Assembly: GCA_963815455.1 (NCBI GenBank)
Contig: CAWFGO010000001.1
Location: forward strand, 416,001 to 480,000
DNA: 64,000 nucleotides
Source: an uncultured Verrucomicrobiae bacterium
GTDB taxonomy: Bacteria; Verrucomicrobiota; Verrucomicrobiia; Chthoniobacterales; UBA10450
Direction: 5' to 3'
Part shown: piece by piece, positions 25,401 to 47,800 of the stretch
Position numbering within the stretch: position 1 is the stretch's first letter
Layout of the letters: each line of letters begins with the position of its first letter
The notes under the pieces: model-generated
The model's input: the letters and a program-made list of their open reading frames with translations, nothing else
Told to the model about the DNA's origin: nothing
Database searches by the model: none
Made by a program: the position numbers and the translations under genes

Positions 25401-27246
25401 ATGACCTGGCCCCGGCTGTTGTAGGTTCTAATCGTGGTTTGACGCGCTGCATCTATGGACGTTATGGGCAGATGCTTTGAATTGTATTCGTATTCGGCTA
25501 TCTTATCTGCATTCTTTCCGTCCGGATCGGTATTCTCACCTGCCAGATTCCTTTGATAAACGCGCAACACGTCGACTCCGCCTGAAGCATACGCATAGCT
25601 GGTCACTGTGTGGGTGTGCTTTTATTTGGCTAGTTGTATAGGGAGACTGTGTGGTGAGCGCGCGATTGATGGTGGGTGAGTGCTAGCGAGAATAGCGGTT
25701 GGTTGGTTGTGTACAATAGACTTAGTGGTTTTTTTGCTGCTGATAACGTAGAAACTGCGGAATATCGCTGGTTAGAAGTTAGTGCAATATTGGTTTTTGT
25801 GTAGTTGTAGGCATGTTATGGGTGGGTAATTACTACGGGTTTTTGTAATAGATGTGTTACGGTGTTGAGCTTGGAATTGTAATTGTTAAGCGCGATAGGC
25901 TGCGATGGATGGTATTTGATGGAGCTTGTGCGATATTAGCGCTAGATTGCTGGTTTTTTTTTTATATTAGCATGATTTGTGAGATGTGTGTGAAGTAACG
26001 CATACGGTGTGGTAGAGAATTGATGAAATTACTGTTGTTGATAGAAAATGCGAAGAATAGATGGGATGGTGGTAAGTTTGCTGTGTGTATGAAAACAGCG
26101 GTGCGCGAGAAGGGTTGTATTGGTTATTTGTTTGAGTGTTTGTTTATAGGCAAAGATGTTTTGCTAAGCGTGTTATTTGTGATGTATTGTTTATAGTATG
26201 AATCTATGGATTGTGCTGGGTGATTCGCTCAAGATGAGCTGCGGAGTGAGGAGCTTTCGGCTGAGCGAATTTTAGAAATCGCGGTAGCGCTTATAGCTAT
26301 GGAGATGTTGGCAGAGGAGCGTGGCTTGCGCCAGGCAGGTACTGTTGCGAGTGTTATCGATCTGGTATAGCGTGTGCTGCACACGGACATACACGCTGAC
26401 GTTGGCCGTAAGGTTCATCGGATCGTCAGTGACAGGATAGCCAATTGAATGTCCAATTTGGCCCCAGTTTGAATATTGTTGGCTCGGAGATTGATCGCTG
26501 TCCCTTTGGCCGTAGGTCACAACAAAATCAATCCTCGGCCCCGCGGGCGGAGTGTATTCCAATGGCGTGTCAGTAATTCGCAGGCTGGCCGTGGCGAGAT
26601 CGACAGTATAGCGAGCCATGCCATGAGTGTTTCCGCAATCGTCTCCGCCGCCGGTCACATTCTCGTTGCGGCCGCCGTCGTCTGAACCTGTTCCACCGTC
26701 GTCAGCATCATTGGGTTTATGGCTCTCGTCGCTTGGCGTTGGCTCAGGAGTTGGCGAAGGGGGCGGCATATTGATATAGATGTCCAAGTAAGCGACCTTG
26801 TCCTCAGGCTCCGGCAGGGTCCCCGGATACGGTTCTCCTAGCTCTCCAAAATACACGTCCCTTCGTGTCAACGACGCCGACGCACCATTGGTCGTCACTA
26901 GTTCAACTCCCTCGTACGAAAGCTCCGTTCCACGAGTCTGGGACACAATAAGCGTTGGCGACCCAACGCCATTGGCAACATATGCTGTGAATCCCTCATA
27001 GGGATAGCCCGTATGCGTCGTAAATGTCACAGGATATCCTCCATCCGGTGTTCCAGGGGCAATGTGATAGACAGCGATAATGGTTCCCCTGTCGGAAGAG
27101 AATGCGACCAGCACCGAGCCAAAGCCGCACGGGGCGATATTAACGTTTAACTCGACTGAGGAGGCGGCGGCGCGTGCCGTTGCTATTACCAGGAATGCGA
27201 GCGCGGCTGTGAAGGAAGTTAACGACGACAGGTGGACGTGTTTCAA
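22439..27246 (-). CDS. Rhs/YD-repeat polymorphic toxin Rhs-1 with N-terminal signal peptide; middle (25607-26400) garbled
   Basis: YD repeats, TRDHLGSIRE, RWISRDP..NLYAYVANDPLNSADPLGL; ORF 26272..27246 matches the Rhs-2 N-terminus (GMARY..DTPLxYTPPxGP..VTYxQRD). Confidence 0.88.
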
Positions 27247-29906: not shown

Positions 29907-29990
29907 AGACCCGACTCCGCGCGAGGCTACGGCGCGGCAAGGGGGTGGTGGAAAGTGACACCTGACAGAAAATCTGATTCAATCGGAAGA

Positions 29991-30437
29991 ATGAAAGCCA
30001 CGATCTACCTCTTCTTTTGCAGCGTCATGATTTTCTCATTTGCCGTTCCGGCAGACGCGGGCAAACCGAGAAAGAAGAAAATAACGATTGTGACGCCGAG
30101 TCCGACGCCCGGGCCTGCCTCTTCGGCGGATCTCTCCCGTTTCATGAGCGCTCATCTCGAACAAATTCTCGGACCGCTCGACCAGAAGGTCGATGTGCCT
30201 CGCACCGAACTGGATCAGATCCGCGACTCGTTTTCGAAAGGTTTTAGCAAGGCTTCACTGGCCGAAAGGTCGCGATTCCAGCTGGGCCTGGCAGTCTGTG
30301 ACGCGATCTCCCAGGCAATGGCGGAGCGAAATAAAGCGGTTGCGATGGGGGCGGCGGCCAACTGGTCGCAACAAGCTGCACAACTTCGACAACGGATCGA
30401 CCAACTAGCGGCCCAGCAACGGGCCGCGGAACACTAG
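29991..30437 (+). CDS. Hypothetical secreted helical protein
   Basis: Signal peptide MKATIYLFFCSVMIFSFAVPADA, PTP linker. Confidence 0.65.
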   Translation: MKATIYLFFCSVMIFSFAVPADAGKPRKKKITIVTPSPTPGPASSADLSRFMSAHLEQILGPLDQKVDVPRTELDQIRDSFSKGFSKASLAERSRFQLGLAVCDAISQAMAERNKAVAMGAAANWSQQAAQLRQRIDQLAAQQRAAEH

Positions 30438-30469: not shown

Positions 30470-31720
30470 TCACGCGTCGAGCACGAGATCGCTCGCCGGG
30501 GCCCCGATACATGTGAGCCGCGTGCCGGGGTTTGTGTCGAAGTCGGATTTCGCGACGTAAGCAATCTCTCCGGAAAAAACGGCGACCTGACAGGTCCCGC
30601 AGCTGCCGGCACGGCAACCGCACGGAATATTAATTCCGTTCGCCTCCGCGAACTCGAGAATATTCCCGTGCTCGCCCGACCAGTTCACGGTTTTCCCGCT
30701 CTTCTTGAATTGGACCGCAAAGCTAACGGGGGCGGCGTCGGTGGAAGCTCCGGCCGCGGCAACTTTTCTCACGGTGGATGGACCGAATGTCTCGTAGTGA
30801 ATATTCTGATCCGGCACACCCCACTCTTTGAGGCCTTCCGTGATGTCCTGCATCATTGCGCCCGGGCCGCACAGATAGAAATCGAAGTTGCTCGAGGGCA
30901 GCACCTGTTTGAGGGCGTCCACCGAAACGCGGCCTTCATAATGGTAATCGCGTCCTCGCTCGTAATCGAGGCCCGGTTGGCTGCAGAAGACCGTCAGATG
31001 CACGTTTGGATTTTCCTTCACGATCGCTTCCAAATGCTCCCTCATGATATGTTCCGAACGGTTCCGCACCCCGTGGAAAAACCAAACCTCGCGGCGCGAT
31101 CCCTGAGCGACGAGCGTGTTCAACATCGCCAGAACCGGCGTCACGCCTATTCCGCTTCCGATCAGAACAACGGGGCGTCCGCCAGCCGGTTCGAGACAGA
31201 ACTGCCCAGCGGGCGCTTTTACATCGAGAATGTCGCCTTCCTGAATTTGATCGTGGAAAAAGGACGACACGATTCCCGGCGGTCCGCCTTTGTCTCGGGG
31301 CGGAATGCGTTTAATTGTGACACGATAAGCGTCGCCATGCGTCGCGTCGGAAATACTGTAGCAGCGGATGGCCCGATTTCCGGAGCCAGGAATATCCAGT
31401 TGAAACGTCAGGTACTGGCCGGGCAGGAAATCTGGCAGCGGCTTCTTATCGTGCGGCGTGAGATAAAATGAGCAAACGTCATCGCACTCCATGACTTTCT
31501 TGCTGACGAGAAACTTCCGATAGCCATTCCAGGGTAGAGCGTCTTCAGCGCGTTTGCGCCGAAGATCGCGCATCATCGCCAGCTCCGTCTTTAGGAGCTC
31601 AAGGTCGAGGTCGGATTGCCGCCGCTGCCCAACAACACGACGAACGTTCTGGACAGTTACCAGGCCGAGCTGAACAAGGACGCCGCCTATGAGGATGCCG
31701 CCGATTGCTTCGGGAATCAT
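30470..31720 (-). CDS. Membrane-anchored FAD/NAD(P)-binding reductase with C-terminal [2Fe-2S] ferredoxin domain
   Basis: N-terminal TM; FLPGQYL, RCYSIS, GIVSSF, GSGIGVTP, YLCGP..M, YETFG; CRAGSCGTC..LTC. Confidence 0.92.
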   Translation of the reverse strand: MIPEAIGGILIGGVLVQLGLVTVQNVRRVVGQRRQSDLDLELLKTELAMMRDLRRKRAEDALPWNGYRKFLVSKKVMECDDVCSFYLTPHDKKPLPDFLPGQYLTFQLDIPGSGNRAIRCYSISDATHGDAYRVTIKRIPPRDKGGPPGIVSSFFHDQIQEGDILDVKAPAGQFCLEPAGGRPVVLIGSGIGVTPVLAMLNTLVAQGSRREVWFFHGVRNRSEHIMREHLEAIVKENPNVHLTVFCSQPGLDYERGRDYHYEGRVSVDALKQVLPSSNFDFYLCGPGAMMQDITEGLKEWGVPDQNIHYETFGPSTVRKVAAAGASTDAAPVSFAVQFKKSGKTVNWSGEHGNILEFAEANGINIPCGCRAGSCGTCQVAVFSGEIAYVAKSDFDTNPGTRLTCIGAPASDLVLDA

Positions 31721-31749
31721 GAGCGGGCCGGGAACGTGAAAACTCCTTG

Positions 31750-33258
31750 TTAGAACTTTACCAACAGCTCGGAGCGAAAGCCGTAGGCGGTGTCGCGATC
31801 CTCGGGAAAGCCGACGAAAGCGTCAAGGATCAGAACCGTATGTTGATTCATCTTCATCTGATAGCGCCCTGCCATCGCGACCCCGTCCGGCTGATTAAAG
31901 AACTGTGGAGTCTCAGTGCGAACGCGTCCGCCGAATTCCAGAGTGAGCTGGCGATCGCTGCTGCCAAGGAATCTTTGGTAGCCAACGGCCCCGCCGCCAG
32001 CGTCATTGGCCCGATTACCCAAAGGCGCACCGTAGGCGCCCAGGCCCTGCGCCGCAAAAAGAATCCCGGTTTGTCCGAGCGGCCCGCCGCGATCACCGCC
32101 GCGAGCGGCGGATGAATAATCGCGGATGCCCAGGAAAGCGTCGATGTAAACAACATCCTTACTTTCCGGAAGGGTAGTAGAGAGCTGCTGGAACAACAGC
32201 ACACCCGTGCTAACGGCAGGCGTCTCGTGACCGAGTGCGACGGAACCGTTGACGCGTGTCGTGGAATTGATCAGACCAAAGCGCTGGATGTTGCCCAGGC
32301 CGGCGTAGAAACCATCGCCGCCGGTCGCGGCCTCAGCTTTTACGTAAGCGAAATCGAGGTCGATGGTCCTGGCGGCGTAATCGGCGGTGTTGAAGAGTCC
32401 GAACAATTTCGCGCTGCTTTCGCGGATATTGTTGTTCCGGTTCAACTCATTGAAGGCAAAAATGGCAGTGGTGCGCAATGAGGAAGCGCCCAGGAAGAAA
32501 AGCGATGTCCGCGTTATGCCAACGGCGTCGATCACGTCCTCGTTGATCATGATGCCGTCCTGGAAACTGAGCGGCTGGCGGCCGACCGCGAAGCTGAAGT
32601 CGAAGCTCTTCTTGTCGTCACGGTCGAGATTCGGGAAAAGCTCGCCAAAGTCCCCTTGAAAAAAAAGCGTGGTGACCGTTCCATTAACTTCGTCCGTGAT
32701 CTTATGTTCGGGGTCGAAGCGGTAACCGCTGTAGGCGAGTCCATCGCGATCGAGGGGGCGAATGCCGACGAGCACGCGCTCGGTCGGCGTGAGATAGAGA
32801 TTTCCGTAAATGTCGGCACGATTGGCCCATTCGGTGATCTGGCCGGCGCCTGAGCCATTGTCGAAAGTCTGGTAGGCGGTGCGGAGAGTGCCAAAAACGA
32901 TGAAGACCGGTTGCCAGACCGCGCCGGTGGGGAGGTTAATGCCGGGAGCGATCGGGCCGCGGCCGAGAAATGGATTTTGGCCGATCTCGATGATGGGCTT
33001 GGGTCGATCAGGAAATCCTTCGAGCTTGAGCGGGACCGGGTTCTCGCTGAGAGCGCTGCCATGGTTCTGGGGCGTGCCTTGGAAGAGGCCGAAAAAACCG
33101 CTTTTCTTCTTTGGCGGAGCAGGCATTGCCATGCCGTCGGCCGTCGTCGTTGCGCTTGTAGTCGTCTCTTCTCCAGATGCGGTGTCCGCCGCCAGCGCAC
33201 TGGAGGCGCTTGTTAGGGCAAAACCGGCGGCGAAAACGGTGATCAGGATCGTGCGCAT
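31750..33258 (-). CDS. Putative outer-membrane beta-barrel protein
   Basis: Signal peptide, amphipathic beta-strand pattern, C-terminal ..FRSELLVKF. Confidence 0.72.
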   Translation of the reverse strand: MRTILITVFAAGFALTSASSALAADTASGEETTTSATTTADGMAMPAPPKKKSGFFGLFQGTPQNHGSALSENPVPLKLEGFPDRPKPIIEIGQNPFLGRGPIAPGINLPTGAVWQPVFIVFGTLRTAYQTFDNGSGAGQITEWANRADIYGNLYLTPTERVLVGIRPLDRDGLAYSGYRFDPEHKITDEVNGTVTTLFFQGDFGELFPNLDRDDKKSFDFSFAVGRQPLSFQDGIMINEDVIDAVGITRTSLFFLGASSLRTTAIFAFNELNRNNNIRESSAKLFGLFNTADYAARTIDLDFAYVKAEAATGGDGFYAGLGNIQRFGLINSTTRVNGSVALGHETPAVSTGVLLFQQLSTTLPESKDVVYIDAFLGIRDYSSAARGGDRGGPLGQTGILFAAQGLGAYGAPLGNRANDAGGGAVGYQRFLGSSDRQLTLEFGGRVRTETPQFFNQPDGVAMAGRYQMKMNQHTVLILDAFVGFPEDRDTAYGFRSELLVKF

Positions 33259-33268
33259 GGGCTCGCGA

Positions 33269-35512
33269 TCAATGTGGAGAAGGCGTTGCGGCCTCAGCCA
33301 CTTTTAGGGCCTGATGCGCGGCTTTTGATTCCGGCAGAAAAGGCTTTTCCGGTGGCGCCATGATTTCGTCCTCGGTCGGCTTGAGGCTAATGACCGTCGG
33401 AGCCGAAGGCAGAGTAATCGCCTTGTTCCAGAGTATTTGCGAGCGTTCGACTACACTGTCGGCAATGCCCTTGGGCGACATGTTGTAATCGAAGCCGACC
33501 TCAACGATGTCGCTGATCAGATTTACTGGAATCATCTGGGCGACGAATTTCACGTTCACTTTGTAAGGCCCCTGACCGGTCAGAAACTTGGCATCTACTT
33601 TGTAAGGCGCCCAACGATAGCCGCCCGGCGGCAATACAATGCTCTGTTTACGAGCGCCGTTCGGCCGTGCCAGCAGCGCGTCGGCGTTCGTCGCCGGCCG
33701 CACGTACGGGAGCGGATCGACGCTCTTGTTCGTGGGAAGCACCTGCACGCGCTCGCCGCCGCGGATCAGCGTGACTAAAAACTTCGATTGCAGGCTGAAG
33801 AGATATTTATCCAACGGCAACTTACGATCGTGAACGTAACTTGACTCCTCGTCGCGATAGTCGCCATTCGGATCGCGATCACCGGAAACGAAGATCACTT
33901 TGCCGCGCTGATCGGTAACCGTGACCTGGAGAAAATTGGCGCGTTCCGCATCGAAGCCGGTCGGCGTGCCGTGGCCGTCGGTGCCGTTTACCACCTTAAT
34001 CTTGAATTTGATCCCACGCGCATCGTTCCGTTGAAGGACAAAATCGTGCAATTGAAAGCCGCGCCGCAAAATTTGGTAACGCTGCAAGTTCGCCTCCTCC
34101 AGTTTCGCGAATTGATCGTCGAGAATGGCTCGCGCGTCGTATCGATCGTCGATCGATTGCCAGCGCGCCGGAAATTTGAAACCGGCCGGTGCGCTATTTT
34201 CAAAGGCATCCGTGCCCCAGCCGGCGCGATAATCGAATTGCAGCCATTCCCGCATCGTGGCGAGCGCCTGCGCCTTAACGTTAAAGGGGAACAATCCGGG
34301 ATGAATGACAGAGTAATCGGGGCCGGCAAAACGATGATCGGTCAATTTGCGCGATGGCGTGGGTTTATCGCCGACTGTGGCGGCGGGACCGAAAGCGTAA
34401 TCGGACTTCAGACCTGGGATTTTAGCCATATGACAATCCTGGCAGGTTTCGCCGCGCTTGTTAGCCTGCGAATTCTTGAATTGGGAAAATGCTTCTTCCA
34501 ACCGGAAACCGTTGAGCAAATTCACATCGTGGCAGGTGCCGCAGAAGCCCGATTTTTCCAAGGGATCGAACTTGACCACGTTCGTGTGGATAGCGCGGCC
34601 GACTTCGCCTCGTTTTGTCACGACCTGGAATTGATCGGGCTCGGAAATGACCTCTTTCAGAATCTTGTTTCCCTGCGGCCCATAGACCGGCTCGAAAAGG
34701 TCACCCTCTTGAATGGCGGTGCGCCCGCTGACCTTGCCGTAGTTGTTTTTCACCCGATGGCAGACGATGCAACTGATCCCTTCGCGGGATGTGGGATTGC
34801 GGTCCATGTTGCTGACGAAAATCGGCTCCTTTAATTGCATGCCGACCTGGGTGTGGCAACGGATGCAAAAGTCGCCGTTGCTTCCCGAGGTGCGTTTTTC
34901 GATCGTCGCCTGCATCGTGTTAAACACCGGGCTGATCTGCGCGTAGGCGTGTTGAGAAACCGACCATTGCCGGAACTGCGTGGGATGGCAGGTCGCGCAG
35001 GTCGAGGCTGATGGAAACTTGTTTTCCACGAGCAACTTTGCGTGCGCAGCAGCAGCATCTGCCGGTGGCGCGGCTGCGGTTGATCCTCCTGCCCTGGGAG
35101 GGAGCTTCAGTGGCTCCGGGGGCAGCAGGCTGTCGGGCTCGACGGGGATCTGCTCCTCGGTCCCTCCAGGCGCGAGCAGATCGTCATCCGATGAAGGCTT
35201 GGCTGCCGGGTTTGGTTTCTCAGGAACCAACAAATCGTCGTCAGATGATGAGCTTTGTCCTGGTGTTGGTGTTGCCGGTTCCAGCAAATCATCACTTGAT
35301 GTGGAAGCTGCCGCCGGACTCTCAACGGCTGAGGCCGATGGTGAACTCACCGGCGCAGGACTGGATGATTCTTCTGCCGTTTCACCCGATTTTTCCGACG
35401 TGGCTGCAGGCGTATTGGCCGCATCCTGCCCGAATGTGGTCCGGACAACCGCCGCCAGAAACAAACAGCAGCAGCAGCCGACCAAAACCGCGGTATGCCG
35501 TTGTGCGAGCAT
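33269..35512 (-). CDS. Exported pentaheme cytochrome c with C-terminal beta-rich domain
   Basis: CATCH, CIRCH, CIVCH, CGTCH, CQDCH; signal peptide; acidic disordered N-terminus. Confidence 0.9.
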   Translation of the reverse strand: MLAQRHTAVLVGCCCCLFLAAVVRTTFGQDAANTPAATSEKSGETAEESSSPAPVSSPSASAVESPAAASTSSDDLLEPATPTPGQSSSSDDDLLVPEKPNPAAKPSSDDDLLAPGGTEEQIPVEPDSLLPPEPLKLPPRAGGSTAAAPPADAAAAHAKLLVENKFPSASTCATCHPTQFRQWSVSQHAYAQISPVFNTMQATIEKRTSGSNGDFCIRCHTQVGMQLKEPIFVSNMDRNPTSREGISCIVCHRVKNNYGKVSGRTAIQEGDLFEPVYGPQGNKILKEVISEPDQFQVVTKRGEVGRAIHTNVVKFDPLEKSGFCGTCHDVNLLNGFRLEEAFSQFKNSQANKRGETCQDCHMAKIPGLKSDYAFGPAATVGDKPTPSRKLTDHRFAGPDYSVIHPGLFPFNVKAQALATMREWLQFDYRAGWGTDAFENSAPAGFKFPARWQSIDDRYDARAILDDQFAKLEEANLQRYQILRRGFQLHDFVLQRNDARGIKFKIKVVNGTDGHGTPTGFDAERANFLQVTVTDQRGKVIFVSGDRDPNGDYRDEESSYVHDRKLPLDKYLFSLQSKFLVTLIRGGERVQVLPTNKSVDPLPYVRPATNADALLARPNGARKQSIVLPPGGYRWAPYKVDAKFLTGQGPYKVNVKFVAQMIPVNLISDIVEVGFDYNMSPKGIADSVVERSQILWNKAITLPSAPTVISLKPTEDEIMAPPEKPFLPESKAAHQALKVAEAATPSPH

Positions 35513-35665
35513 GGCCAGCCCATGATCAAGCTATCTTTCGCGACTCTGGTCAACTCGAAAATTCTTGATCGTCCAAGACAAGAAGCTTGCTCTTTAACAT
35601 CGATTGCATTACGCAGTTCTATCGCGGCAAATTGATCCTAAGAAAAAGGAGGAGGAGAATTCGTT

Positions 35666-36667
35666 ATGCATGTTCGAAGACTCAAACTCAGCGCAGCGTC
35701 GGTCGTGTTCGGGCTCGTATTGAGCAGCGGCGGCGCGTATGGCGGCCAAGTCCACGAAATTGATCCGGCAAAAGTGGTGGGCGCCACAAAATGCGGCGAG
35801 TGCCACAAATATGAAGTCGAAGCGTGGAAGCTCACTCCGCATTTCCAGACCTTCGATACCATGCATCGCAGCGCTGACGGCCAGAAAATCTCGACCGCCC
35901 TCGGGATCAAACGGATCAAATCGGAAAGCCTCTGCTTAACCTGCCATTACACTGTCCAGGCCAAGGGCGGCCAGGCAGAGCCGATCTCAGGAGTGTCTTG
36001 TGAATCGTGCCATGGCGCCGCGGCCGACTGGATTAATGTCCACAATGACAAGAAACTTTCGCGGGAGGAGCGCCGGACGAAGTCCGCCGCTGCGGGAATG
36101 ATTCGTCCCGACAATGTTGATGCGGTGGCGGCGAATTGTTATCAATGCCATCTCGTTCCTAACGAGAAATTAGTGAACACTGGTGGACACACCGCCGGCA
36201 CGCCCGGATTTGAACTGGTGGCCTGGTCGCAGGGGATGGTGCGGCACAATTTTCTCACCCCCGAGGGCGAGGAAGGCAAAACGAACAAGGAAGACGACGC
36301 CAACCGCAAACGCATGATGTTTGCCACCGGCGCGATTCTCGATCTTGAATACAGTCTCCGCGGCGTGGGCAGTGCCACCGAAAAAGCGACTTACGGCGTG
36401 ACCATGGCTCAGCGCGTTGCCGGACTAAAAAAGAAGGTCGAGGAGATCCAGAAGGCGGCACCCACTGACGAGATGGCGCAGATCATCACCACGGTCGGCG
36501 GTGTTGCCCTTAAGCTGAACAATAAGCAGCCGCTGGATGAAGCGGCGGACAAAGTGGCTGAGCTGGCCAAGAAGTTTTCGGAAAACGTGACCGGTGATAA
36601 ACTGGCGGGACTCGACCCCTTGTTACCGAAGCCAGGGCAGTATCGCGGGAAGCCGTATCAACCCTAA
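35666..36667 (+). CDS. Periplasmic tetraheme cytochrome c (c554-like N-terminal domain)
   Basis: VGATKCGECH, CLTCH, GVSCESCHG, CYQCH; signal peptide. Confidence 0.9.
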   Translation: MHVRRLKLSAASVVFGLVLSSGGAYGGQVHEIDPAKVVGATKCGECHKYEVEAWKLTPHFQTFDTMHRSADGQKISTALGIKRIKSESLCLTCHYTVQAKGGQAEPISGVSCESCHGAAADWINVHNDKKLSREERRTKSAAAGMIRPDNVDAVAANCYQCHLVPNEKLVNTGGHTAGTPGFELVAWSQGMVRHNFLTPEGEEGKTNKEDDANRKRMMFATGAILDLEYSLRGVGSATEKATYGVTMAQRVAGLKKKVEEIQKAAPTDEMAQIITTVGGVALKLNNKQPLDEAADKVAELAKKFSENVTGDKLAGLDPLLPKPGQYRGKPYQP

Positions 36668-36722
36668 ACAATTGACGGTCGCTGCTTGCCAGTTCGGGCG
36701 GCAATTGTTTCAATTGTAGATC

Positions 36723-38460
36723 GTGGCTGAATCCTTGACGCGAATCTCCCGTCCGCACCGGTGGGATGTTCCTTTCGGGGGAGCGATGTCGGATGCAGAT
36801 GTCGATCGTCTTCTCACGATTCCGCCATTTTCCACTACCGATGCCAGCCGTTTTCCGCCGGCCATTCCTCTGCACGGGGTTCTTCGCAACGACACCCGCA
36901 TTCGCAAATTCGAGCACGGTGACATTATTGTTCGTGAAGGCGATTATGGGAGCTCCGCGTTTTTTATTCTGAGCGGAGCGGTTCGAGTGGTGTTGGATTC
37001 GTTACCGGCCGAGTTGCTTGGCCGGCGCAAGCCCGAGAAAAAGAGTTTCTTTGGCTCACTGGCGCAGCTCTGGAACCGGCCCGTTTATCCCGAGGTGCGT
37101 GACTATTCGAGTAACCGAGCCGCCAGGGGCTCGGCCTCCGCCGCTGTGAAAGCCCGCCAGGCGGACGGCGAAGACATTCACATTTTTCTTCAAGATGTAC
37201 CCGGCGTATTGAAAAAGAATCGCACCGCACGAATAGGATCGGGTGAATTGTTTGGAGAGATAGCAGCTCTCAGCCGGACGCCGCGAACGGCGACTGTAAT
37301 CGCCGACGAACCGGCGGAATTACTGGAAATACGATGGCAGGGGCTACGCGAAATACGCCGTTATGCGCCGGAATGGAAAGAACATATCGATCGGCTGTAT
37401 CGGGAGCGAAGCCTCCTGGTCCATTTGCGCGAGACTCCGTTCCTGGCTGGCCTCTCGCCTGAAGCGCTTCAGGCCATCGCTGATCACACCATTTTCGAAG
37501 GTTTCGGCGACTTCGAATGGAACGTATCATACCGGACGGCTCGCGGTGGATCGGCTCAACAACGTCTTCAAAAGGAACCGATCGTGGCCCGGGAAGGTGA
37601 TTACCCCAATGGGTTAATTCTGATTCGCAGCGGCTTCGCGCGCCTCAGTCGAAAATACAATCATGGCGAACGCACGATCAGTTATCTGGGCAAGGGTGAT
37701 GTCTACGGTCTCTCGTCGCTGCTTTGCAATTCAAAGTATCCTGAACCAACCGGCCTGGAGTTCTCGCTGCGTGCCATCGGTCACGTTGACGTTCTCGTCA
37801 TCCCGACGCCCATCGTGGAAAAGTTCATCGCGCCGCGTTTTAGCGATGCCGAGGTCTCTGCTATCCGCGAGCGAACAAAGCGCCAGAGTGAGATCGACGT
37901 GGAACGCGACGCCATGGCCACCTTTGGACCGGAGATGATTGAGTTTTTAGTGGAAGAACGTTTCGTCAACGGGACGGCCACAATGTTGATCGATCTCGAT
38001 CGCTGCACGAGATGCGACGATTGCGTGCGGGCTTGCGCCGCGGCTCATGATAATAATCCGAAGTTTATCCGTCATGGCCACGCTAATAGCGGGATCATGG
38101 TAGCCAATGCCTGCATGCATTGTGTCGATCCAGTTTGCATGATCGGCTGTCCTACCGGGGCCATCCATCGTGAGTCGATCCAGGGCCAGGTTGTGATCAA
38201 TGACCTCACCTGCATCGGCTGCGCGACCTGCGCCAACAGTTGCCCGTACCGATAACATTCAAATGGTCGAGATCCGCGATCGAAACGGCAGGTTCTTTCT
38301 CGATGAAGCAACTCAGGCACCGATTTTAAAGGCGAGTAAGTGCGACCTGTGTGTGGATCAACTCGGGGGGCCGGCCTGTGTTCGGGCCTGCCCTCATGAC
38401 GCTCTGATCCGTGCCGACATGGGCGAGATCGACAAACTATCGAGGTGGATGAACCGGTGA
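36723..38460 (+). CDS. Tandem cNMP-binding domains fused to a DmsB/NrfC-type 4Fe-4S domain (frameshift ~38250)
   Basis: REGDY x2, FGEIAALSRTPRTATV; CTRCDDCVRAC, CMHCVDPVCMIGCP, CIGCATCANSCP, KCDLC..PACVRACP. Confidence 0.9.
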
Positions 38461-39277
38461 GCCCGCTTGTTGCCCGCCGCACCGGCTTCATTGCCGGTCT
38501 CGCCGTTATCTCGGCTCTGACTCTTGCCGGATGGCAACTCCTGCGGACCGCGTTGCGACCGGATGCGACTTATACTGGCGTATCCTTCTGTTGCTGGTCC
38601 TAGCGCTCACTCTTTTCAACGCCCGGAAAAAACTGCCATTCTTGCCTCTGGTGAAGGCCGCGACCTGGCTTCAGATACATATCTACGCGGGTTGGTTCTG
38701 CCTCTTTGTTTTTCTGCTTCACATTCGTTTTCGCATCCCGACCGGAGTAATGGAAGTGACGCTGGCTGTGGTTTTTTGCGTTGTTGTTCTGAGCGGTATT
38801 TTCGGTCTCTACATTAGCCGCAATCTGCCGCCACGCATGACTGCTTCGGGCGAAGCGTTGCCTCACGAACGCATCCCTGCTTATCGCTTGCATATCCAGC
38901 ACAACGTCGAAGCCCTCATTCGCAAAGCCGAGTCCGAAACCGAATCATCGACCCTGGGCGATTTCTACGTGCAACGATTGCGCGATTTCTTCGCGCGAGT
39001 TCCGGCGGCGTTCTACGCTTTATCCGGCGCCGGCCGCGGTTTGCACACGCTATTGGCGGAGATGGAGGCCCTGGATCGATATCTAAACGAACAGGAAAAG
39101 ACCATCGCCCGTGATATTCGCGATTGGATCGAAACCAAACAGAACCTCGATTTCCAGTATGCGGCTCAGCGTTTACTGAGACTCTGGCTCTTTGTCCACA
39201 TCCCACTCACCTACAGCTTGATTTTACTCGGCGTGGCGCACGGAATTGTTGCTACGCTCTATGCGGGAAGGTTTTGA
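38457..39277 (+). CDS. Integral membrane protein with His residues in TM helices (possible heme b); 5' frameshift
   Basis: WLQIHIYAG, FLLHI, WLFVHIPL, VAHGI; GTGA coupling to the upstream gene. Confidence 0.78.
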
Positions 39278-39278
39278 A

Positions 39279-41570
39279 ATGCAGCGCCCGCTAGATCCGC
39301 TCGGTTTCAAACAAAATCGGTACGAGCGTCCGAACCAGGGTTGGATCTGTGGACGAGCGAGTGAAGGATCTCCTTGCCCGCTCGGACCGGACAAACACGG
39401 CAATTGTCGCGCTACGGGCCAATGTATACCCGCACGAAAGGGCGATCGATGGTTCTGCACCCGCTCCGAAGCCGATGGCGGGAAGTGCAGCGAAGGTCCG
39501 TTGCCACGCGGCGAGTGCTCGCATCCCATTCCTCCCTGCCAGCCGGTTCGCTCTCTGCGACGACTTCGGGCAGCCGGTGTTTGGATGGTCGTGGCCCTTA
39601 CGATCGGCGCGTTGTTGCTTCTCTTTAGCACTGCGTTTCGACGGGAATGGATGAATCCCGGTGAGCTTACTAATGCTCACGCCACCTCGGCGGCGAAATG
39701 CAGCGACTGTCACAGCGTCGATCTCAAAAATCATGCTTCGATCGCGGGGTTCGAAAAACGCGCGCTGGCCGATAGTGCGCTCTGTCTGAACTGCCACTCG
39801 CTGGGCGATCACCCGCTCAATCCCCATGGAGTCGTGCCTGCGTCGCTGGCTGCGCTCGATCAAAAGCTTCAACGGAATCCTGGCTCGGCCAAAGGTCCCG
39901 TTCTGCTCCAAGTCAGCCGAAGCGTCAGTGGACTCGATGCGCACTCAGGGGAAATGGCCTGCTCAACCTGCCATCAAGAACATCACGGCCGCACCTTTGA
40001 TTTAAAACGTCTTTCAAATGCGCAGTGTCAGACCTGCCATTCGGTCCAATTCGCAAGTTTCGAAAACGGACATCCGCAATTTTCCGATTATCCATATCGC
40101 CGGCGCACCCAAATCTTTTTCGATCACAATTCCCATCTGCAAAAGCACTTTGCAGAAATGAAAGAGAAAGCTCCCGGCTCGTGTCAGGTCTGTCATGCTC
40201 CAGATCCGTCCGGTCGATTTATGCAGGTGAAGAATTTCGAGGTCACCTGCGCTGGCTGCCATGGCTCGCAGATTCGTGGGGAAGGAATGACTACTAAAGG
40301 CATCGCATTTTTTACTGTCCCCGGTCTGGATATCGAAACCCTGGTGGCAAAAGGAATCAGCATTGGTCAGTGGCCAAAATTCGCCGACGGTAAAATCACG
40401 CCGTTCATGGAATTGCTGCTCAACCGCGAGCCAATAACTCGGAAGGCCTGGCAAGAACTGCAGGGAATCGATCTCCTGGACCTGAGCAAAGCCGGCTCCG
40501 GTCAAATCGCCGCCGCGGAACAGCTGGCGTGGGGTGTCAAAAGTCTCCTCTTCAATCTGATCGTCGAAGGCCAAGGCTACTTGCTGGAACAGATCAAATC
40601 GCAAATGGCACGGACCGACCAACCGGCGTTGGCCGGACTGGCCGGAGAAATTTCTCCGGCCGTCTTGCTCGCGGCGCAGAAGGATTGGATGCCTGATCTG
40701 CTTACCGAAGTCCCAAATTTTCGCAAAGGCATTAAACCGCCGCTCCCCAAACGCCCGGAACCAACTCCGAGGCCATCGCCGGTTTCGTCTCCGGCAAAAT
40801 CAGGCGGAGGAGATGAATCTCTCCTTGGGGGAGAAAGCCTCGCTTCCGGAGGCGATTTGTTAGCCGCGTCTCCCGCACCGTCCAAATCTGGATCCAAGGA
40901 TGAAGACCTTGCCGGGGGCGATCTTCTAGAGCCGGCGGCAGCAGCGAAGGCGACGCCGTCGCCTGCCGGTACGCCGCCGCCGATTGAACCGAAACAAGCG
41001 GAAGAATGGGCCGCGGCCGGCGGCTGGTATCGACCGCGCGATAGCTTCACCATTTTCTATCGTCCTTCCGGACACGCCGACGCTTTTGTGGTGGCGTGGC
41101 TGACGGCAGCGGCTCAACTCGACCGAACCACGCCGGAGGTGTTTCAAAAGCTCGCCGATCCGCAGACGCCTGGAGTCTGTATGAAGTGTCATACCGCAGA
41201 TCGGTCCGAGGAAGCCATTATGGTCAATTGGCTGCCGGCTCATCCCGAGCCTAATGCGCACTCCTTCACCATTTTCAAACACACGTCGCACTTTAGTTTG
41301 TTAGGCGATAAGGGATGCCAAACCTGCCACGGTCTCAATCCCAATTCCGGTTATCAGAAATATTTTACCGGCGGTTCCGGAGCCCCCCGCAATCCGCGCC
41401 AGTTTGAAAGTAATTTTAAGCCCATGTCCAAGGCGGTCTGTGCTGAATGCCACAGACCGCGAGTCGCCGGAGACAGATGCCTGCTCTGTCATCAATATCA
41501 TACCGGAACTTTCGCCGAAAAATTGGTCGGTGGCGCGAAAATCGAGAGCGTATCTATCAAGAGCAAGTGA
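39279..41570 (+). CDS. Membrane-anchored decaheme cytochrome c with Cys-rich N-terminal domain
   Basis: CSDCH, CLNCH, CSTCH, CQTCH, CQVCH, CAGCH, CMKCH, CQTCH, CAECH, CLLCH; FDHNSH and FKHTSH c3/c7-type motifs. Confidence 0.9.
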   Translation: MQRPLDPLGFKQNRYERPNQGWICGRASEGSPCPLGPDKHGNCRATGQCIPARKGDRWFCTRSEADGGKCSEGPLPRGECSHPIPPCQPVRSLRRLRAAGVWMVVALTIGALLLLFSTAFRREWMNPGELTNAHATSAAKCSDCHSVDLKNHASIAGFEKRALADSALCLNCHSLGDHPLNPHGVVPASLAALDQKLQRNPGSAKGPVLLQVSRSVSGLDAHSGEMACSTCHQEHHGRTFDLKRLSNAQCQTCHSVQFASFENGHPQFSDYPYRRRTQIFFDHNSHLQKHFAEMKEKAPGSCQVCHAPDPSGRFMQVKNFEVTCAGCHGSQIRGEGMTTKGIAFFTVPGLDIETLVAKGISIGQWPKFADGKITPFMELLLNREPITRKAWQELQGIDLLDLSKAGSGQIAAAEQLAWGVKSLLFNLIVEGQGYLLEQIKSQMARTDQPALAGLAGEISPAVLLAAQKDWMPDLLTEVPNFRKGIKPPLPKRPEPTPRPSPVSSPAKSGGGDESLLGGESLASGGDLLAASPAPSKSGSKDEDLAGGDLLEPAAAAKATPSPAGTPPPIEPKQAEEWAAAGGWYRPRDSFTIFYRPSGHADAFVVAWLTAAAQLDRTTPEVFQKLADPQTPGVCMKCHTADRSEEAIMVNWLPAHPEPNAHSFTIFKHTSHFSLLGDKGCQTCHGLNPNSGYQKYFTGGSGAPRNPRQFESNFKPMSKAVCAECHRPRVAGDRCLLCHQYHTGTFAEKLVGGAKIESVSIKSK

Positions 41571-44483: not shown

Positions 44484-44596
44484 TAATTTCGACCGGTGAG
44501 GTGTCAGCCGGCGAAGAAGAAATCCCCCAAGCGAAAATTGTTGTTGACTTCCCTCGACCTGTTTCAGACAAACGCCGCCTAACGTGCAATCGCCAA

Positions 44597-44706
44597 TTCA
44601 GAGCTTCAGAGCTTCAGAGCTTCAGAGCTTCAGAGCTTCAGCTTCAGAGCTTCAGAGCTTCAGAGCTTCAGAGCTTCAGAGCTTCAGAGCTTCAGAGCTT
44701 CAGAGC
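44597..44706. repeat. Tandem octamer TTCAGAGC: 13 perfect units plus one 6-nt unit
   Basis: Directly counted; lies ~165 nt upstream of the Rhs-2 start. Confidence 0.95.
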
Positions 44707-44871
44707 TCTCGGCACTCGCGCGAGTAAAGGCAAGCCTTCTTCCCAGCCCAGCTTTGGCAGCGCGACTCACAATTCGCCGAGCAACCTTGCTCGCCGCCAC
44801 TCCCCTCTCGAACCGCGCGACAGCGGACCGCTTCACAGAAAATTCACTCCACAACAAACCCAACTACACCG

Positions 44872-47800
44872 ATGAAAAAGACATCATTTAGCCTGCTATT
44901 TGGAATTCTGGTTGTCATCACAGCATCATTGTTATTGCGACCGCCAGTGTCAGTTGCCCAAAGCGTCCCTGAAGGTGTAACCAACGGGAACGACCCCGAT
45001 CGCATCACACCGTGCGATGAAATGGTGGGTGGAAACGGCCCGGGGTGCAACTGTGGTGGCGGGGGAAGTCCCGGGATGGCGCGCTACAGCGCGCACGCGA
45101 TGGATGTCAGCCTGAATATCGTGGATACGCCCCTGTTTTACACACCGCCTCGGGGGCCCGCGGTGAGTGTCACTGTGACATACAATCAACGGGACATGAG
45201 CCAACCATCAACGTTCACTTTTTCGAATTTGGGTCCGAAATGGACATTGAATTGGCTATCGTATCTGGAAGATACGCCTGGGACAACGGACAACATCAAG
45301 CTCTACGCTCAAGGCGGCGGGATGGAGACGTACACGTACGACTTCGCCGCTCAAAATTGGGTGCTTGTAAGCGGCGGCGGGTATAGCCACGCGTATATAG
45401 AAAGACTGACATCCGATCCCAACAAGTACAAGCGCCATTTGCCCGATGGATCAGAGGAGACGTTTGGGTATTATGTTGGGACAACGCCCGGCCGCAGAGT
45501 GTTTTTGACCAAGCTCGCCGATCCGGTTGATCATTCACTCACTTTTACCTACGCGAATTCCAACCTGACATCAGTGACTGACGACATCGGGCGGGTCACG
45601 ATTCTTCACTACGACGATCCAAGCGATAGCCATCGCCTAACGCGTATTGACGACCCATTCACGCCACATCGCTCCGCCACATTCGAGTATTACCCGGATG
45701 GGCACTTAAAGAAGATCACCGACATGGGTGGATTGACCTCGGAATTCACATATGGAACCACCCCTGAAAAGGTTGATTTTATCACTTCGCTGACGACGCC
45801 TTATGGCACGAGCAACTTTGATTTTGGTGAAAACACCGATCCGCAGGTGCAACAACGGTGGTTGGAGATGACCGATCCAAATATGGGAAAGGAGCGCGTG
45901 GAGTTTCGGCACAACGCACCGATCGATGACAGCGAAGAAGATTCTGGAACCCTGCCTGAGAATCTAACGATTACCAACCAGTATCTGAAGCATCGCAACA
46001 CATTCTACTGGAGCAAAAAGGCGATGGCCGTCGCTCCGGGCGATTACACGCAGGCGAAAATCACCCACTGGCTCCACACTACCGACAACAGGGCCTCCGG
46101 CATGAAAGAGAGCGAGAAGGCGCCAAATGAGAACCGGATTTGGTACACTTATGTTGGCCAATCCGCCACATACACAGTCGGCACGGAAAGCTATCCGCAG
46201 GTCGTGGCCCGCAGGTTGGAAACTGGTGTAGCCAATACGACGCAGCGGTACCAATATGTCTACAACAGCAAGGGAAATATCACCCAGCTGACAGATCCAT
46301 CAGGTCGCGTTACGAAGTACCGATACAAGGACAATGGCATTGATCTAGAAAGGGTGCTCCAGGTAAATGCGAGTGGGAATGACGACCTGCTGTCGGAATA
46401 CAATTACGAAGGCGCGCCGTCTCACATGCCGGCCTGGTACAAGGATGCCGCGGGCAAGCAAACAACATACGACTACTATCCTAGCCAGCGGCAACTGAAG
46501 ACCATCACGAATCCGAAGGGCGAGGCAACGAGATTCACATACGATCAAAACGACCGGTACTTAAAGACCATCACGGGCGATAATGGCACTGTGTTAAGCG
46601 CGCCGGTCGATTTCACCTACGACGCCTACGGTCGCGTACAAACGGTTACCGGCCCTCCCGACTCGAACAATGCGAGATACAATACGACCATCGAGTACAC
46701 CGACCTCAACCAAATCCGAAAGATCACTTACCCGGATAATACTTACGAGGAAATCACCTATAATCGGCTCGATCCGGAATGGGTTCGGGATCGCGCGGGA
46801 CGTATGACGCACAACACATTCGACGCCCTCCAGCATCTCCGATTCGTGGAGGACCCCGAACATCGAATTACCGAATATGTCTGGTGCAATTGCGGGCTCC
46901 TCGATTCGATTGTCGATGCGAACCATAACACAACCAGCTTTGATTATGATGGGCAGAGCCGGATGACCAAAAAGACGTACGCCAACAACTTGTTCGACCT
47001 CTACATTTATGAGGACGCAACCAACCGACTAAAATCGATGACCGATGCGCGGAATCAGTCGACAAATTACCGGTATTACGTGGACGACAACCTGAAGCAG
47101 GTCAGCTACTCCAATGCGCAAATGCCCACACCAACGGTGAATTATATCTACGACCCCAAATACAACCGGATCACCTAGGGCGCCACCAGATTGAAAACCG
47201 TGGGCGGAATCTGGGGGGGCGACACGATCACCTACGGTTATGACATGTTGGGGCAATTGAACAGTCAGTCGATTAACGGAATTAGTTCCTCGATTACGTT
47301 CGATGGCCTCGGCCGAGTGGATTCCTCTACCAATCCCCTGGGGTCGTTCACCCGCCTTTACGATGGCAAAACCCCACGGCTTAAGACGCTCGTTTATCCG
47401 ACCGCGACCGGCCTCACCGCGAATTACACCTATGCATCATATCCGGCCGATCCGAGGCTCCAGATTTTGGAGAATAAGAAATCACCCGATACCACCCTTT
47501 CTTTGTTTAACTACACGTATTACGCAGACGGCCAGATCGCGACTTTGATCAAGAATCTGGGCGGCTCCATTAACAACATATCGTTGGAATACGACGACTC
47601 GCAATGGCTGACTTCGGCCCTTCAGGACGATCACGAATTTTACTATGGGTACGACGACGCTGGAAACCGGCTGTCAGAGAGCATGTACTTCGCTGGCCAT
47701 AATCACGCTCATGAAAAGACGACGGCGTTCACGGCGAACATTCTTAATCAGCTCGATAGCGTGAAAGTGTTCTTTGGTTTAGGGCAATGGTCCCAACCTC

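What the first reader, a model, noticed from the sequence alone, without database searches (positions are those of the whole stretch)
30470..41570. Candidate envelope-spanning electron conduit with a built-in cNMP-binding module
Seen: two divergent, tightly packed operons encode an FAD/NAD-[2Fe-2S] reductase with a TM anchor, a beta-barrel, exported penta- and tetraheme cytochromes, a tandem cNMP-binding/4x[4Fe-4S] protein, a His-bearing membrane protein and a membrane-anchored decaheme (19 CxxCH in total). Established: porin-cytochrome pairs (MtrAB, Pcc) move electrons across the outer membrane and are usually fed from quinol; DmsB/NrfC-type proteins normally partner a molybdoenzyme or NrfD, and neither is present here. 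Inference: a chain from NAD(P)H to the periplasm or outer membrane that bypasses quinone and may be gated by a cyclic nucleotide. I do not recognise this as a characterised system.
Basis: partly seen in the sequence, partly recalled or inferred. Interest (0 to 1): 0.85.

Follow-up and report, generated by a model that had tools for sequence, protein, structure and literature searches.

The report
Known PCC4/ptd multiheme redox cluster
These seven genes are a soil-type copy of a cytochrome gene cluster already described twice but never tested, which likely carries electrons from NAD(P)H across the inner membrane to an enzyme-like periplasmic cytochrome beside a small outer-membrane pore, rather than through a wire out of the cell.

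Summary
The seven genes and 19 CxxCH motifs are real. The cluster is already in print as PCC4 (He et al. 2017) and ptdABCDEFG (Elbon et al. 2024), both untested. This scan found it before on three other genomes. All seven genes co-occur in 29 of 44 long loci from many phyla.

What I add:
(1) The barrel models as an 18-stranded small-solute channel, not a 26-stranded MtrB.
(2) The pentaheme has the fold of T. tepidum c552 and is related to the polysulfide reductase MccSep, but lacks MccSep's catalytic Cys/Sec pair and has a conserved Glu near heme 2. It looks like an enzyme with different chemistry.
(3) The decaheme has a cytoplasm-side 8-Cys domain that is lost together with the FAD reductase at about four places on the tree.
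(4) Only the first cNMP domain keeps its binding cassette.

Best model: NAD(P)H to Fe-S to di-heme b to decaheme to tetraheme to pentaheme enzyme (0.5). Substrate, direction, quinone bypass and cNMP gating are untested.

The parts
30470..31720 (-). ptdC: FNR-type FAD/NAD(P) oxidoreductase with C-terminal [2Fe-2S] ferredoxin and N-terminal membrane anchor (416 aa)
   Evidence: Pfam PF00970, PF00175, PF00111; hydrophobic helix at residues 5-23; four Fer2 Cys invariant in 54 of 54 orthologues
31750..33258 (-). ptdB: outer-membrane beta-barrel, predicted 18 strands, signal peptide, conserved N-terminal segment (502 aa)
   Evidence: AlphaFold pLDDT 92.5; 20 strand elements of which two form a loop hairpin; best folds MOMP/Occ/AlgE/chitoporin, Z 23-26.5 over 320-332 residues; no Pfam match
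33269..35512 (-). ptdA: exported pentaheme cytochrome c with Ig-like domain, c552/MccSep-like fold; lacks MccSep's Cys/Sec pair; conserved Glu339 near the heme-2 site (747 aa)
   Evidence: 5 CxxCH; 5ZE8 E 1.7e-15 and 9WT8 E 8.6e-4 by profile; model to 5ZE8 Z 21.9, rmsd 3.8, 351 aligned; conservation
35513..35665 (.). 153-bp divergent intergenic region; conserved TTGAC and CAAG words in close relatives, probably back-to-back promoters (inferred)
   Evidence: alignment of 11 intergenic regions; the sigma-70 consensus scan found 0 sites
35666..36667 (+). ptdD: exported tetraheme cytochrome c554 homologue with four extra invariant His, so probably an all bis-His electron carrier (333 aa)
   Evidence: 1BVB E 4.9e-8; His59, 126, 175, 194 invariant in 60 of 60 orthologues
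36723..38460 (+). ptdE: cytoplasmic tandem cNMP-binding domains plus 4x[4Fe-4S] ferredoxin; one extra base near 38250 splits it here (ORF 36723-38255, tail 38251-38460)
   Evidence: Pfam; tblastn of an intact orthologue gives 75% and 78% identity on the two sides of the break; 16 Cys invariant in 42 of 42 orthologues
37251..37298 (+). phosphate-binding cassette of the first cNMP domain (FGE...PRTATV); the second domain lacks the Glu and Arg
   Evidence: GE-x6-[P/A/Q]-R found in 43 of 44 orthologues
38457..39277 (+). ptdF: inner-membrane protein with two WX3HX13H motifs and SGXXG (ferric-reductase-like, predicted di-heme b); one base missing near 38575 here
   Evidence: motifs present in the window protein; both His motifs in 47 of 47 orthologues and SGXXG in 43 of 47; Atlas top hit 'ferric reductase like transmembrane component', 0.97; break
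39279..41570 (+). ptdG: membrane-anchored decaheme (6 hemes, long spacer with Pro-rich linker, 4 hemes) with ten extra conserved His
   Evidence: 10 CxxCH; TM at residues 109-127; distal His in 42-43 of 43 orthologues
39348..39539 (+). 8-Cys N-terminal domain of PtdG before the membrane anchor (two repeats of C-x8/9-C-x2-GP-x3-G-x-C-x5/6-C); predicted cytoplasmic metal site; lost together with ptdC
   Evidence: no Pfam match and no usable Atlas hit

Best explanation
The seven genes are a PCC4/ptdABCDEFG cluster that likely takes electrons from cytoplasmic NAD(P)H, passes them across the inner membrane through a predicted di-heme b protein without needing quinone, and delivers them to a predicted periplasmic pentaheme enzyme whose small substrate would enter through the adjacent 18-stranded pore. 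Proposed path: PtdC (FAD, [2Fe-2S]) -> PtdE (4x[4Fe-4S]) and/or the 8-Cys domain of PtdG -> PtdF hemes b -> PtdG (10 hemes) -> PtdD (4 hemes) -> PtdA heme 2. Shown: the parts, motifs, co-occurrence, predicted folds and co-loss patterns. Inferred: the order, the direction, quinone independence, catalysis by PtdA and any cNMP control of PtdE. The substrate is unknown; my guess is a small oxidant or nitrogen oxide, from the acidic residue at the active-site position. This genome's copy is probably intact, with two assembly indels.
For: PtdA lies directly upstream of PtdB in 78 of 78 loci where it is present, and PtdD is in 43 of 44 long loci, while C/E/F/G come and go. PtdF was not found with this query in 5 of 7 genomes whose locus has only AB(D). 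So A-B-D is the core and C-E-F-G an exchangeable feed. PtdA is the most conserved subunit (median 53% identity against 35-49% for the others, 29 distant loci). It has the 5ZE8 fold, and its relative MccSep is a periplasmic enzyme with catalytic heme 2. Four of PtdA's five extra invariant His have counterparts in the MccSep family, which would leave heme 2 without MccSep's Cys; Glu or Asp sits at or next to that position in 71 of 72 orthologues. The barrel matches solute porins; MtrB is not among the 50 top rows of either search, and MtrB has 26 strands. PtdF has all four His of long ferric-reductase domains, which move electrons from NAD(P)H across the membrane. PtdE paralogues sit next to a NuoEF-type NADH module in 4 loci, including this genome. 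The PtdG 8-Cys domain is present in 33 of 34 loci with full PtdC and in 0 of 9 that lack it, with 4 changes on the PtdA tree.
Against: No binding or activity was shown. PtdA has a fifth invariant His (His157) that could fill heme 2 and make it a pure carrier; His counts do not settle ligation, since MccSep-family proteins have six extra invariant His for four ligands. The position of Glu339 is uncertain by one residue between the 5ZE8 and MccSep alignments. Six loci keep F and G but have no E and no full C nearby, and no full-length PtdE was found in those six genomes, so F can be fed some other way, possibly from quinol as He et al. proposed. An 18-stranded barrel does not exclude electron transfer: smaller cytochrome-linked barrels such as Cyc2 exist (recalled). 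The PtdA identity lead over PtdE and PtdB is modest (53 vs 49 vs 47%).
Confidence: 0.5

Rival explanations
1. Extracellular electron transfer: PtdB holds one of the cytochromes (PtdA, PtdD or the C-terminal tetraheme arm of PtdG) and the cluster exchanges electrons with iron, manganese or humics outside the cell, as He et al. and Elbon et al. suggested.
For: Porin next to multiheme cytochromes; found in Fe(II)-oxidising Zetaproteobacteria and in Hyphomicrobium; PtdG's last four hemes sit on a long linker; this fold family resembles an archaeal nanowire cytochrome.
Against: 18 strands against 26 for MtrB; best matches are solute porins; 34 conserved polar residues on the inferred lumen side, 9 of them Arg; no extracellular cytochrome in the cluster; PtdA is globular with an Ig domain; the barrel occurs without PtdG in 8 of 44 long loci (2 of the 8 have F at the locus edge, so G may lie just outside).
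Confidence: 0.22
2. The same chain run inward: PtdA oxidises a periplasmic substrate and PtdD, like cytochrome c554 after hydroxylamine oxidoreductase, passes electrons via PtdG and PtdF to quinone or to NAD(P)+.
For: PtdD is a c554 homologue; ptdAB are highly transcribed in nod-bearing marine Alphaproteobacteria and the cluster occurs in Nitrospirales; F and G persist without C and E in 6 loci.
Against: Ferric-reductase-type domains carry electrons outward from NADPH; two unrelated NAD(P)H modules are paired with PtdE-like proteins; reducing NAD(P)+ from periplasmic hemes would usually be uphill (established knowledge).
Confidence: 0.18
3. In this genome the cluster is decaying: ptdE and ptdF are true pseudogenes, and only A-B-C-D may work.
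For: Two frameshifts about 330 bp apart; the cluster is patchy in the family, 18 of 200 genomes; no reads were available to check.
Against: 8 of 91 unrelated orthologues in this assembly also show frame changes, 0.10 per kb, so 1.1 are expected in 11.1 kb and 2 are seen (P about 0.30); identity after the ptdE break (78%) is no lower than before it (75%); close relatives show breaks at other places.
Confidence: 0.1

Closest known systems
ptdABCDEFG operon (Elbon, Stewart, Glass; bioRxiv 10.1101/2023.11.21.568154)
   Same: All seven components in kind and heme number; homologues of the window's barrel lead to loci in exactly the order ABCDEFG (14 of 38 seven-gene loci) in Alpha- and Gammaproteobacteria, Nitrospirales and Planctomycetota.
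   Different: Here split into divergent blocks GFED/ABC (14 of 38 loci, Chthoniobacterales and some Opitutales) in a non-marine lineage; PtdE has four clusters' worth of Cys, not two as the paper says; the paper mentions no 8-Cys domain in the parts read.
PCC4 (He et al. 2017, PMC5566968)
   Same: Porin, periplasmic 4-, 5- and 10-heme cytochromes, inner-membrane protein with two WX3HX13H and SGXXG, pfam13247 Fe-S gene upstream of it, redox gene.
   Different: The paper models Fe(II) oxidation into the quinone pool; its text does not mention the cNMP domains (0 occurrences of 'cyclic nucleotide') and lists no Verrucomicrobia in the section read.
MccSep/ExtKL polysulfide reductase (bioRxiv 10.1101/2025.11.18.688581; PDB 9WT8) and T. 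tepidum pentaheme c552 (PDB 5ZE8)
   Same: Five hemes plus Ig-like domain, shared distal His, the GH-x-P-x-G loop; in Geobacter the extKL cluster also holds a porin gene.
   Different: PtdA has no Cys after heme 4 (0 of 73) and Phe at the Sec position (66 of 73; none Cys); it scores 32.5 bits against the family cut-off of 250; it has a large helical insertion.
MtrAB/MtoAB porin-cytochrome complexes
   Same: A barrel gene next to multiheme cytochromes, including a decaheme.
   Different: 26-strand barrel with a rod-like decaheme inside, against a predicted 18-strand barrel and an inner-membrane-anchored decaheme here.
Ferric reductase / NADPH oxidase (FRD) superfamily
   Same: Four His in two helices, 14 residues apart; an FAD/NAD(P) dehydrogenase module on the cytoplasmic side.
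   Different: The dehydrogenase is a separate anchored protein with [2Fe-2S]; there is a long cytoplasmic helical insert; no Pfam PF01794 or solved-structure match by sequence.

Membership tests
ptdABCDEFG / PCC4 | porin plus penta-, tetra- and decaheme cytochromes | tested here: met
ptdABCDEFG / PCC4 | PtdA pentaheme with C-terminal beta-sandwich, homologous to T. tepidum c552 | tested here: met
ptdABCDEFG / PCC4 | inner-membrane protein with two WX3HX13H motifs and SGXXG | tested here: met
ptdABCDEFG / PCC4 | cNMP/Fe-S (pfam13247) gene upstream of the membrane-protein gene, and an FAD/NAD(P) oxidoreductase | tested here: met
   the gene is frameshifted in this assembly
ptdABCDEFG / PCC4 | homologous loci with order ABCDEFG in the taxa the papers name | tested here: met
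   14 of 38 seven-gene loci; Zetaproteobacteria and Hyphomicrobium were not among the 80 loci returned (of 466 confirmed)
ptdABCDEFG / PCC4 | direct sequence match to the papers' listed accessions | not testable with these tools
   bioRxiv supplements closed; He et al. Table 5 gave only its heading
MtrAB-type porin-cytochrome | 26-stranded barrel | tested here: not met
   the model has 18 membrane strands against 26
MtrAB-type porin-cytochrome | cytochrome embedded in the barrel | not tested
   the complex prediction could not be queued
PCC3 | extracellular and periplasmic cytochromes with about 21-34 hemes | tested here: not met
   4, 5 and 10 hemes; PCC3 HMMs themselves were not available
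Verrucomicrobial porin-MHC of He et al. 2017 (mSphere) | porin of 20 or more strands next to an octaheme cytochrome | tested here: not met
MccSep/ExtKL polysulfide reductase | five hemes plus Ig-like domain | tested here: met
MccSep/ExtKL polysulfide reductase | Cys ligand to heme 2 (C239) | tested here: not met
   0 of 73 PtdA sequences have a Cys in the 19 residues after heme 4; 24 of 24 MccSep-family proteins do
MccSep/ExtKL polysulfide reductase | Sec/Cys in the GH-x-P-x-G-U loop (U325) | tested here: not met
   Phe 66, Leu 3, Ser 2, Ala 1, Val 1 of 73
FRD (ferric reductase domain), long di-heme type | four His in two helices, HX13H | tested here: met
   47 of 47 orthologues; definition
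FRD (ferric reductase domain), long di-heme type | PF01794 or structural match | tested here: inconclusive
   no Pfam or PDB sequence match; Atlas feature hit 0.97; PtdF was not folded
cyclic-nucleotide-binding receptors | phosphate-binding cassette with Glu and Arg | tested here: met
   first domain, 43 of 44 orthologues; the second domain lacks both; the motif definition is recalled
cyclic-nucleotide-binding receptors | measured cAMP/cGMP binding | not testable with these tools
   needs an assay

The most novel reading that the evidence does not exclude
A second messenger switches a quinone-free electron line: cAMP or cGMP bound to PtdE gates flow from NAD(P)H through a new 8-Cys metal domain and a di-heme b protein to PtdA, the first member of a new class of pentaheme enzymes that use a distal Glu in place of MccSep's Cys/Sec and dock under their own substrate pore.
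Probability: 0.2. Interest if true: 0.8.

Novelty: new member of a known kind. Interest (0 to 1): 0.4.

Why it matters
The cluster is widespread: 466 confirmed barrel relatives among the 600 stretches examined in a one-genome-per-species collection. [quoted passage not shown] It has been counted as a sign of extracellular electron transfer without any test. If the barrel is a solute pore and PtdA an enzyme, PCC4/ptd should not be used as an iron-cycling marker, and a new periplasmic redox reaction awaits identification. Direct control of a transmembrane electron chain by a cyclic nucleotide would be unusual. This copy itself adds little beyond a divergent gene layout in a soil-type lineage.

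Tried and rejected
Barrel-pentaheme complex prediction: the queue was full twice, nothing was run; binding stays untested.

Sequencing runs: none was listed, so the frameshifts and expression were not checked with reads.

The journal version of the ptd paper was not held. He et al. Supplementary Table 5 gave only its heading.

PtdF profile against solved structures: only chance coiled-coil hits. PtdG 8-Cys domain: no usable Atlas hit, which shows neither novelty nor absence. MtrB is not listed among the top 50 rows of either fold search. Plasmid search: 2 partial matches, no PtdA. No sigma-70 consensus site and no CRP/FNR-like box by my patterns in the divergent gap. Flanking genes are not conserved: 1 of 23 close loci had any of six window neighbours.

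Rejected: PtdA as an MccSep-type sulfur reductase (catalytic pair absent); PCC3 and the octaheme verrucomicrobial PCC; counting invariant His as proof of bis-His ligation.

Cyclase co-loss test: class III cyclases were found in 31 of 32 genomes with ptdE, 1 of 6 with F-G but no E, and 7 of 7 with AB(D) only. The five negatives among the six are two lineages of small genomes, so this is only a hint.

A search of the ISME J paper PMC12133095 for strand numbers of other porin-cytochrome barrels gave nothing useful.
Full report
Observation. Two single-base frameshifts were missed. An extra base near 38250 cuts the cNMP/ferredoxin gene after 12 of its 16 Cys, and a missing base near 38575 separates the first helix of the membrane protein. 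As a control I laid 346 ORFs from 400 kb of a 100%-complete relative on this genome. Of these, 91 passed the orthologue filter (60% identity, 80% cover) and 8 of the 91 had frame changes, 0.10 per kb. That predicts 1.1 breaks in this cluster against 2 seen (P about 0.30). They are probably assembly errors; no reads were listed to check. The nearest named relatives are Chthoniobacterales.

It is already in print. Elbon et al. (preprint 10.1101/2023.11.21.568154; parts 1-3 of 5 and passages read; supplements closed) name ptdABCDEFG: pentaheme with beta-sandwich, porin, FAD/NAD(P) oxidoreductase, tetraheme, cNMP/4Fe-4S protein, ferric-reductase-like membrane protein, decaheme; function 'completely unknown'. 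He et al. 2017 (PMC5566968; passages and section 16; two supplements gave little) describe PCC4 with the same parts and define the membrane protein by two WX3HX13H motifs and SGXXG, all present here. That PCC4 and ptd are one system is my inference from matching features; an earlier scan note gave the lead. I could not compare with the papers' own accessions. Searches for follow-up work listed no functional study; they cover open-access papers only, and searches showed 15 of 64 and 15 of 756 papers. This scan noted the cluster on three other genomes.

Distribution. A barrel profile gave 466 confirmed relatives among 600 stretches examined; the best 80 were fetched. All seven genes occur in 38 of 80 loci, and in 29 of the 44 loci of 20 kb or more. 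The other 15 long loci are ABD 5, ABDFG 4, ABDEFG 3, ABCDEF 2 and AB 1. PtdA is directly upstream of PtdB in 78 of 78 loci that hold it. Orders among the 38: ABCDEFG 14, divergent as here 14, DEFGABC 8, others 2. Within the family, PtdA is in 18 of 200 genomes, and flanks are not conserved. PtdF was not found with one query in 5 of 7 genomes whose locus has only AB(D). Conversely, E-F-G-like modules occur without A-B-D, and E paralogues sit beside NuoEF-type NADH modules in 4 loci, one in this genome and one next to a CHASE2 cyclase. The system is thus a core (A, B, D) plus an exchangeable membrane feed.

The barrel. The model (pLDDT 92.5, 94 sequences) has 20 strand elements after the N-terminal segment, two forming a loop hairpin, hence 18 membrane strands. 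Best matches are Campylobacter MOMP (Z 26.5, rmsd 3.2, 332 aligned), Occ/Opd channels, AlgE and chitoporin; that these are 18-stranded is recalled. MtrB has 26 strands (PMC7198977, passages). By strand alternation, 34 polar residues on the lumen side are at least 80% conserved, 9 of them Arg (a rough assignment). An MtrA-like insertion is unlikely. Smaller cytochrome-linked barrels exist (recalled), so outward transfer is not excluded. The complex prediction could not be run.

PtdA. Profile and model match T. tepidum c552 (5ZE8: E 1.7e-15; Z 21.9, rmsd 3.8, 351 aligned) and, weakly, MccSep (9WT8, E 8.6e-4; profile-profile probability 98%). MccSep is a periplasmic polysulfide reductase with His/Cys heme 2 and a nearby Sec (preprint 10.1101/2025.11.18.688581, parts 1-3 of 6 read). 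PtdA lacks both: no Cys after heme 4 in 73 of 73 sequences and Phe at the Sec position in 66 of 73 (the 73 include one duplicate). Glu339 (69 Glu, 2 Asp of 72) aligns with the 5ZE8 Cys and lies one residue off MccSep's C239. Five extra His are invariant. Four have counterparts in the MccSep family; the fifth, His157, is unexplained and could close the site. PtdA is the best-conserved subunit, by a small margin. I read it as an enzyme with other chemistry. A distal Glu recalls peroxidases and cytochrome P460 (recalled, a lead only).

The feed. PtdD is a c554 homologue. [quoted passage not shown] PtdF has the four His of long ferric-reductase domains (PMC3591440, passages).

The 8-Cys domain. 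PtdG begins with two repeats of a four-Cys motif before its anchor; I did not see it mentioned in the parts of the two papers read. Among 44 loci with a near-complete PtdG, it is present in 33 of 34 with full PtdC; the exception is a split gene whose front piece has the Cys. It is present in one locus cut by the contig end, and absent in all 9 that lack full PtdC. Those 9 need 4 changes on a quick PtdA tree, at least 3 forced by well-supported branches (32 against 9 rows; 28 of 69 rows unlabelled; one long branch). Absence of ptdC was judged within 10 kb only. The domain likely links PtdC to the membrane subcomplex.

The cNMP module. The first domain keeps the Glu and Arg in 43 of 44 orthologues; the second has lost them. 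This genome has 14 class III cyclase matches, 13 over the cut-off. Cyclases were found in 31 of 32 genomes with ptdE and 1 of 6 with F-G but no E, but also in 7 of 7 with AB(D) only, and the negatives are two lineages of small genomes. Binding is plausible; gating is untested. Six loci keep F and G with neither E nor full C, so neither cNMP control nor quinone bypass can be universal. He et al. proposed that PtdF is quinone-active.

Verdict. A new member of a named but untested system. Best model: an NAD(P)H-fed line to a periplasmic pentaheme enzyme beside a solute pore (0.5). Rivals: extracellular electron transfer (0.22), inward flow from an oxidised substrate (0.18), local decay (0.1). Signal peptides and topology were judged from hydropathy and by eye, not with a dedicated predictor. 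Unseen supplements of both founding papers may already hold strand counts or verrucomicrobial examples.

Noticed in passing
G000:C1:963200-967860 (L034:6197-10860): Second cNMP/4Fe-4S protein (885 aa) directly after a NuoEF-like NADH module and beside complex I genes; the same pair is in L033, L036 and L037. Already noted by earlier scan findings.
   Followed up: partly
G000:C1:1245980-1248340: A second PtdF-like gene next to another decaheme gene, unlinked to this cluster; a possible partner of the NuoEF-fed paralogue.
   Followed up: no
L100:11299-12990 and L112:12904-14658: PtdC orthologues with an FHA domain inserted between the NAD-binding and [2Fe-2S] domains, hinting at control by phosphorylation.
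   Followed up: no
L086, L089, L094 (between ptdB and ptdD): Nitrospirales copies reduce ptdC to a small [2Fe-2S]-only protein and lack ptdE and the PtdG Cys domain.
   Followed up: partly
L072, L092, L101, L102 (ptdD position): PtdD is extended to 7-8 hemes; where the locus is long enough to tell (L072, L101, L102) ptdC is absent and PtdE's first cNMP cassette has PQS/PQA in place of PRT.
   Followed up: no
L038:9581-11299 and other Chthoniobacterales ptdB: Many close PtdB orthologues carry a four-Cys 'zinc ribbon' just after the signal peptide, so on the periplasmic side; the window's copy lacks it.
   Followed up: no
L024, L025: A divergent PtdA/PtdB pair (38% and 26-29% identity) sits in an otherwise close cluster within the same family, suggesting exchange of the core; the Glu after heme 4 is kept.
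   Followed up: no
L106:2128-6447: Two tandem ptdA copies upstream of one ptdB.
   Followed up: no
L033:977-15081: CHASE2 adenylate/guanylate cyclase, F-like, decaheme, NuoEF, cNMP/Fe-S and an LVIVD-repeat decaheme in one block.
   Followed up: no
window 26272-27246 (-) and 44872-47178 (+): Rhs-like genes on both sides of the region; the one at 44872 matches RHS_repeat, the one at 26272 has no Pfam match and looks frameshifted by eye.
   Followed up: no
window 44501-44875: Short tandem repeat reading QSFRASEL several times, upstream of the Rhs gene.
   Followed up: no
window 29955-30437 (+): 160-aa exported-looking hypothetical protein converging on ptdC; no Pfam or NCBIfam match and not found in 23 close loci.
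   Followed up: partly
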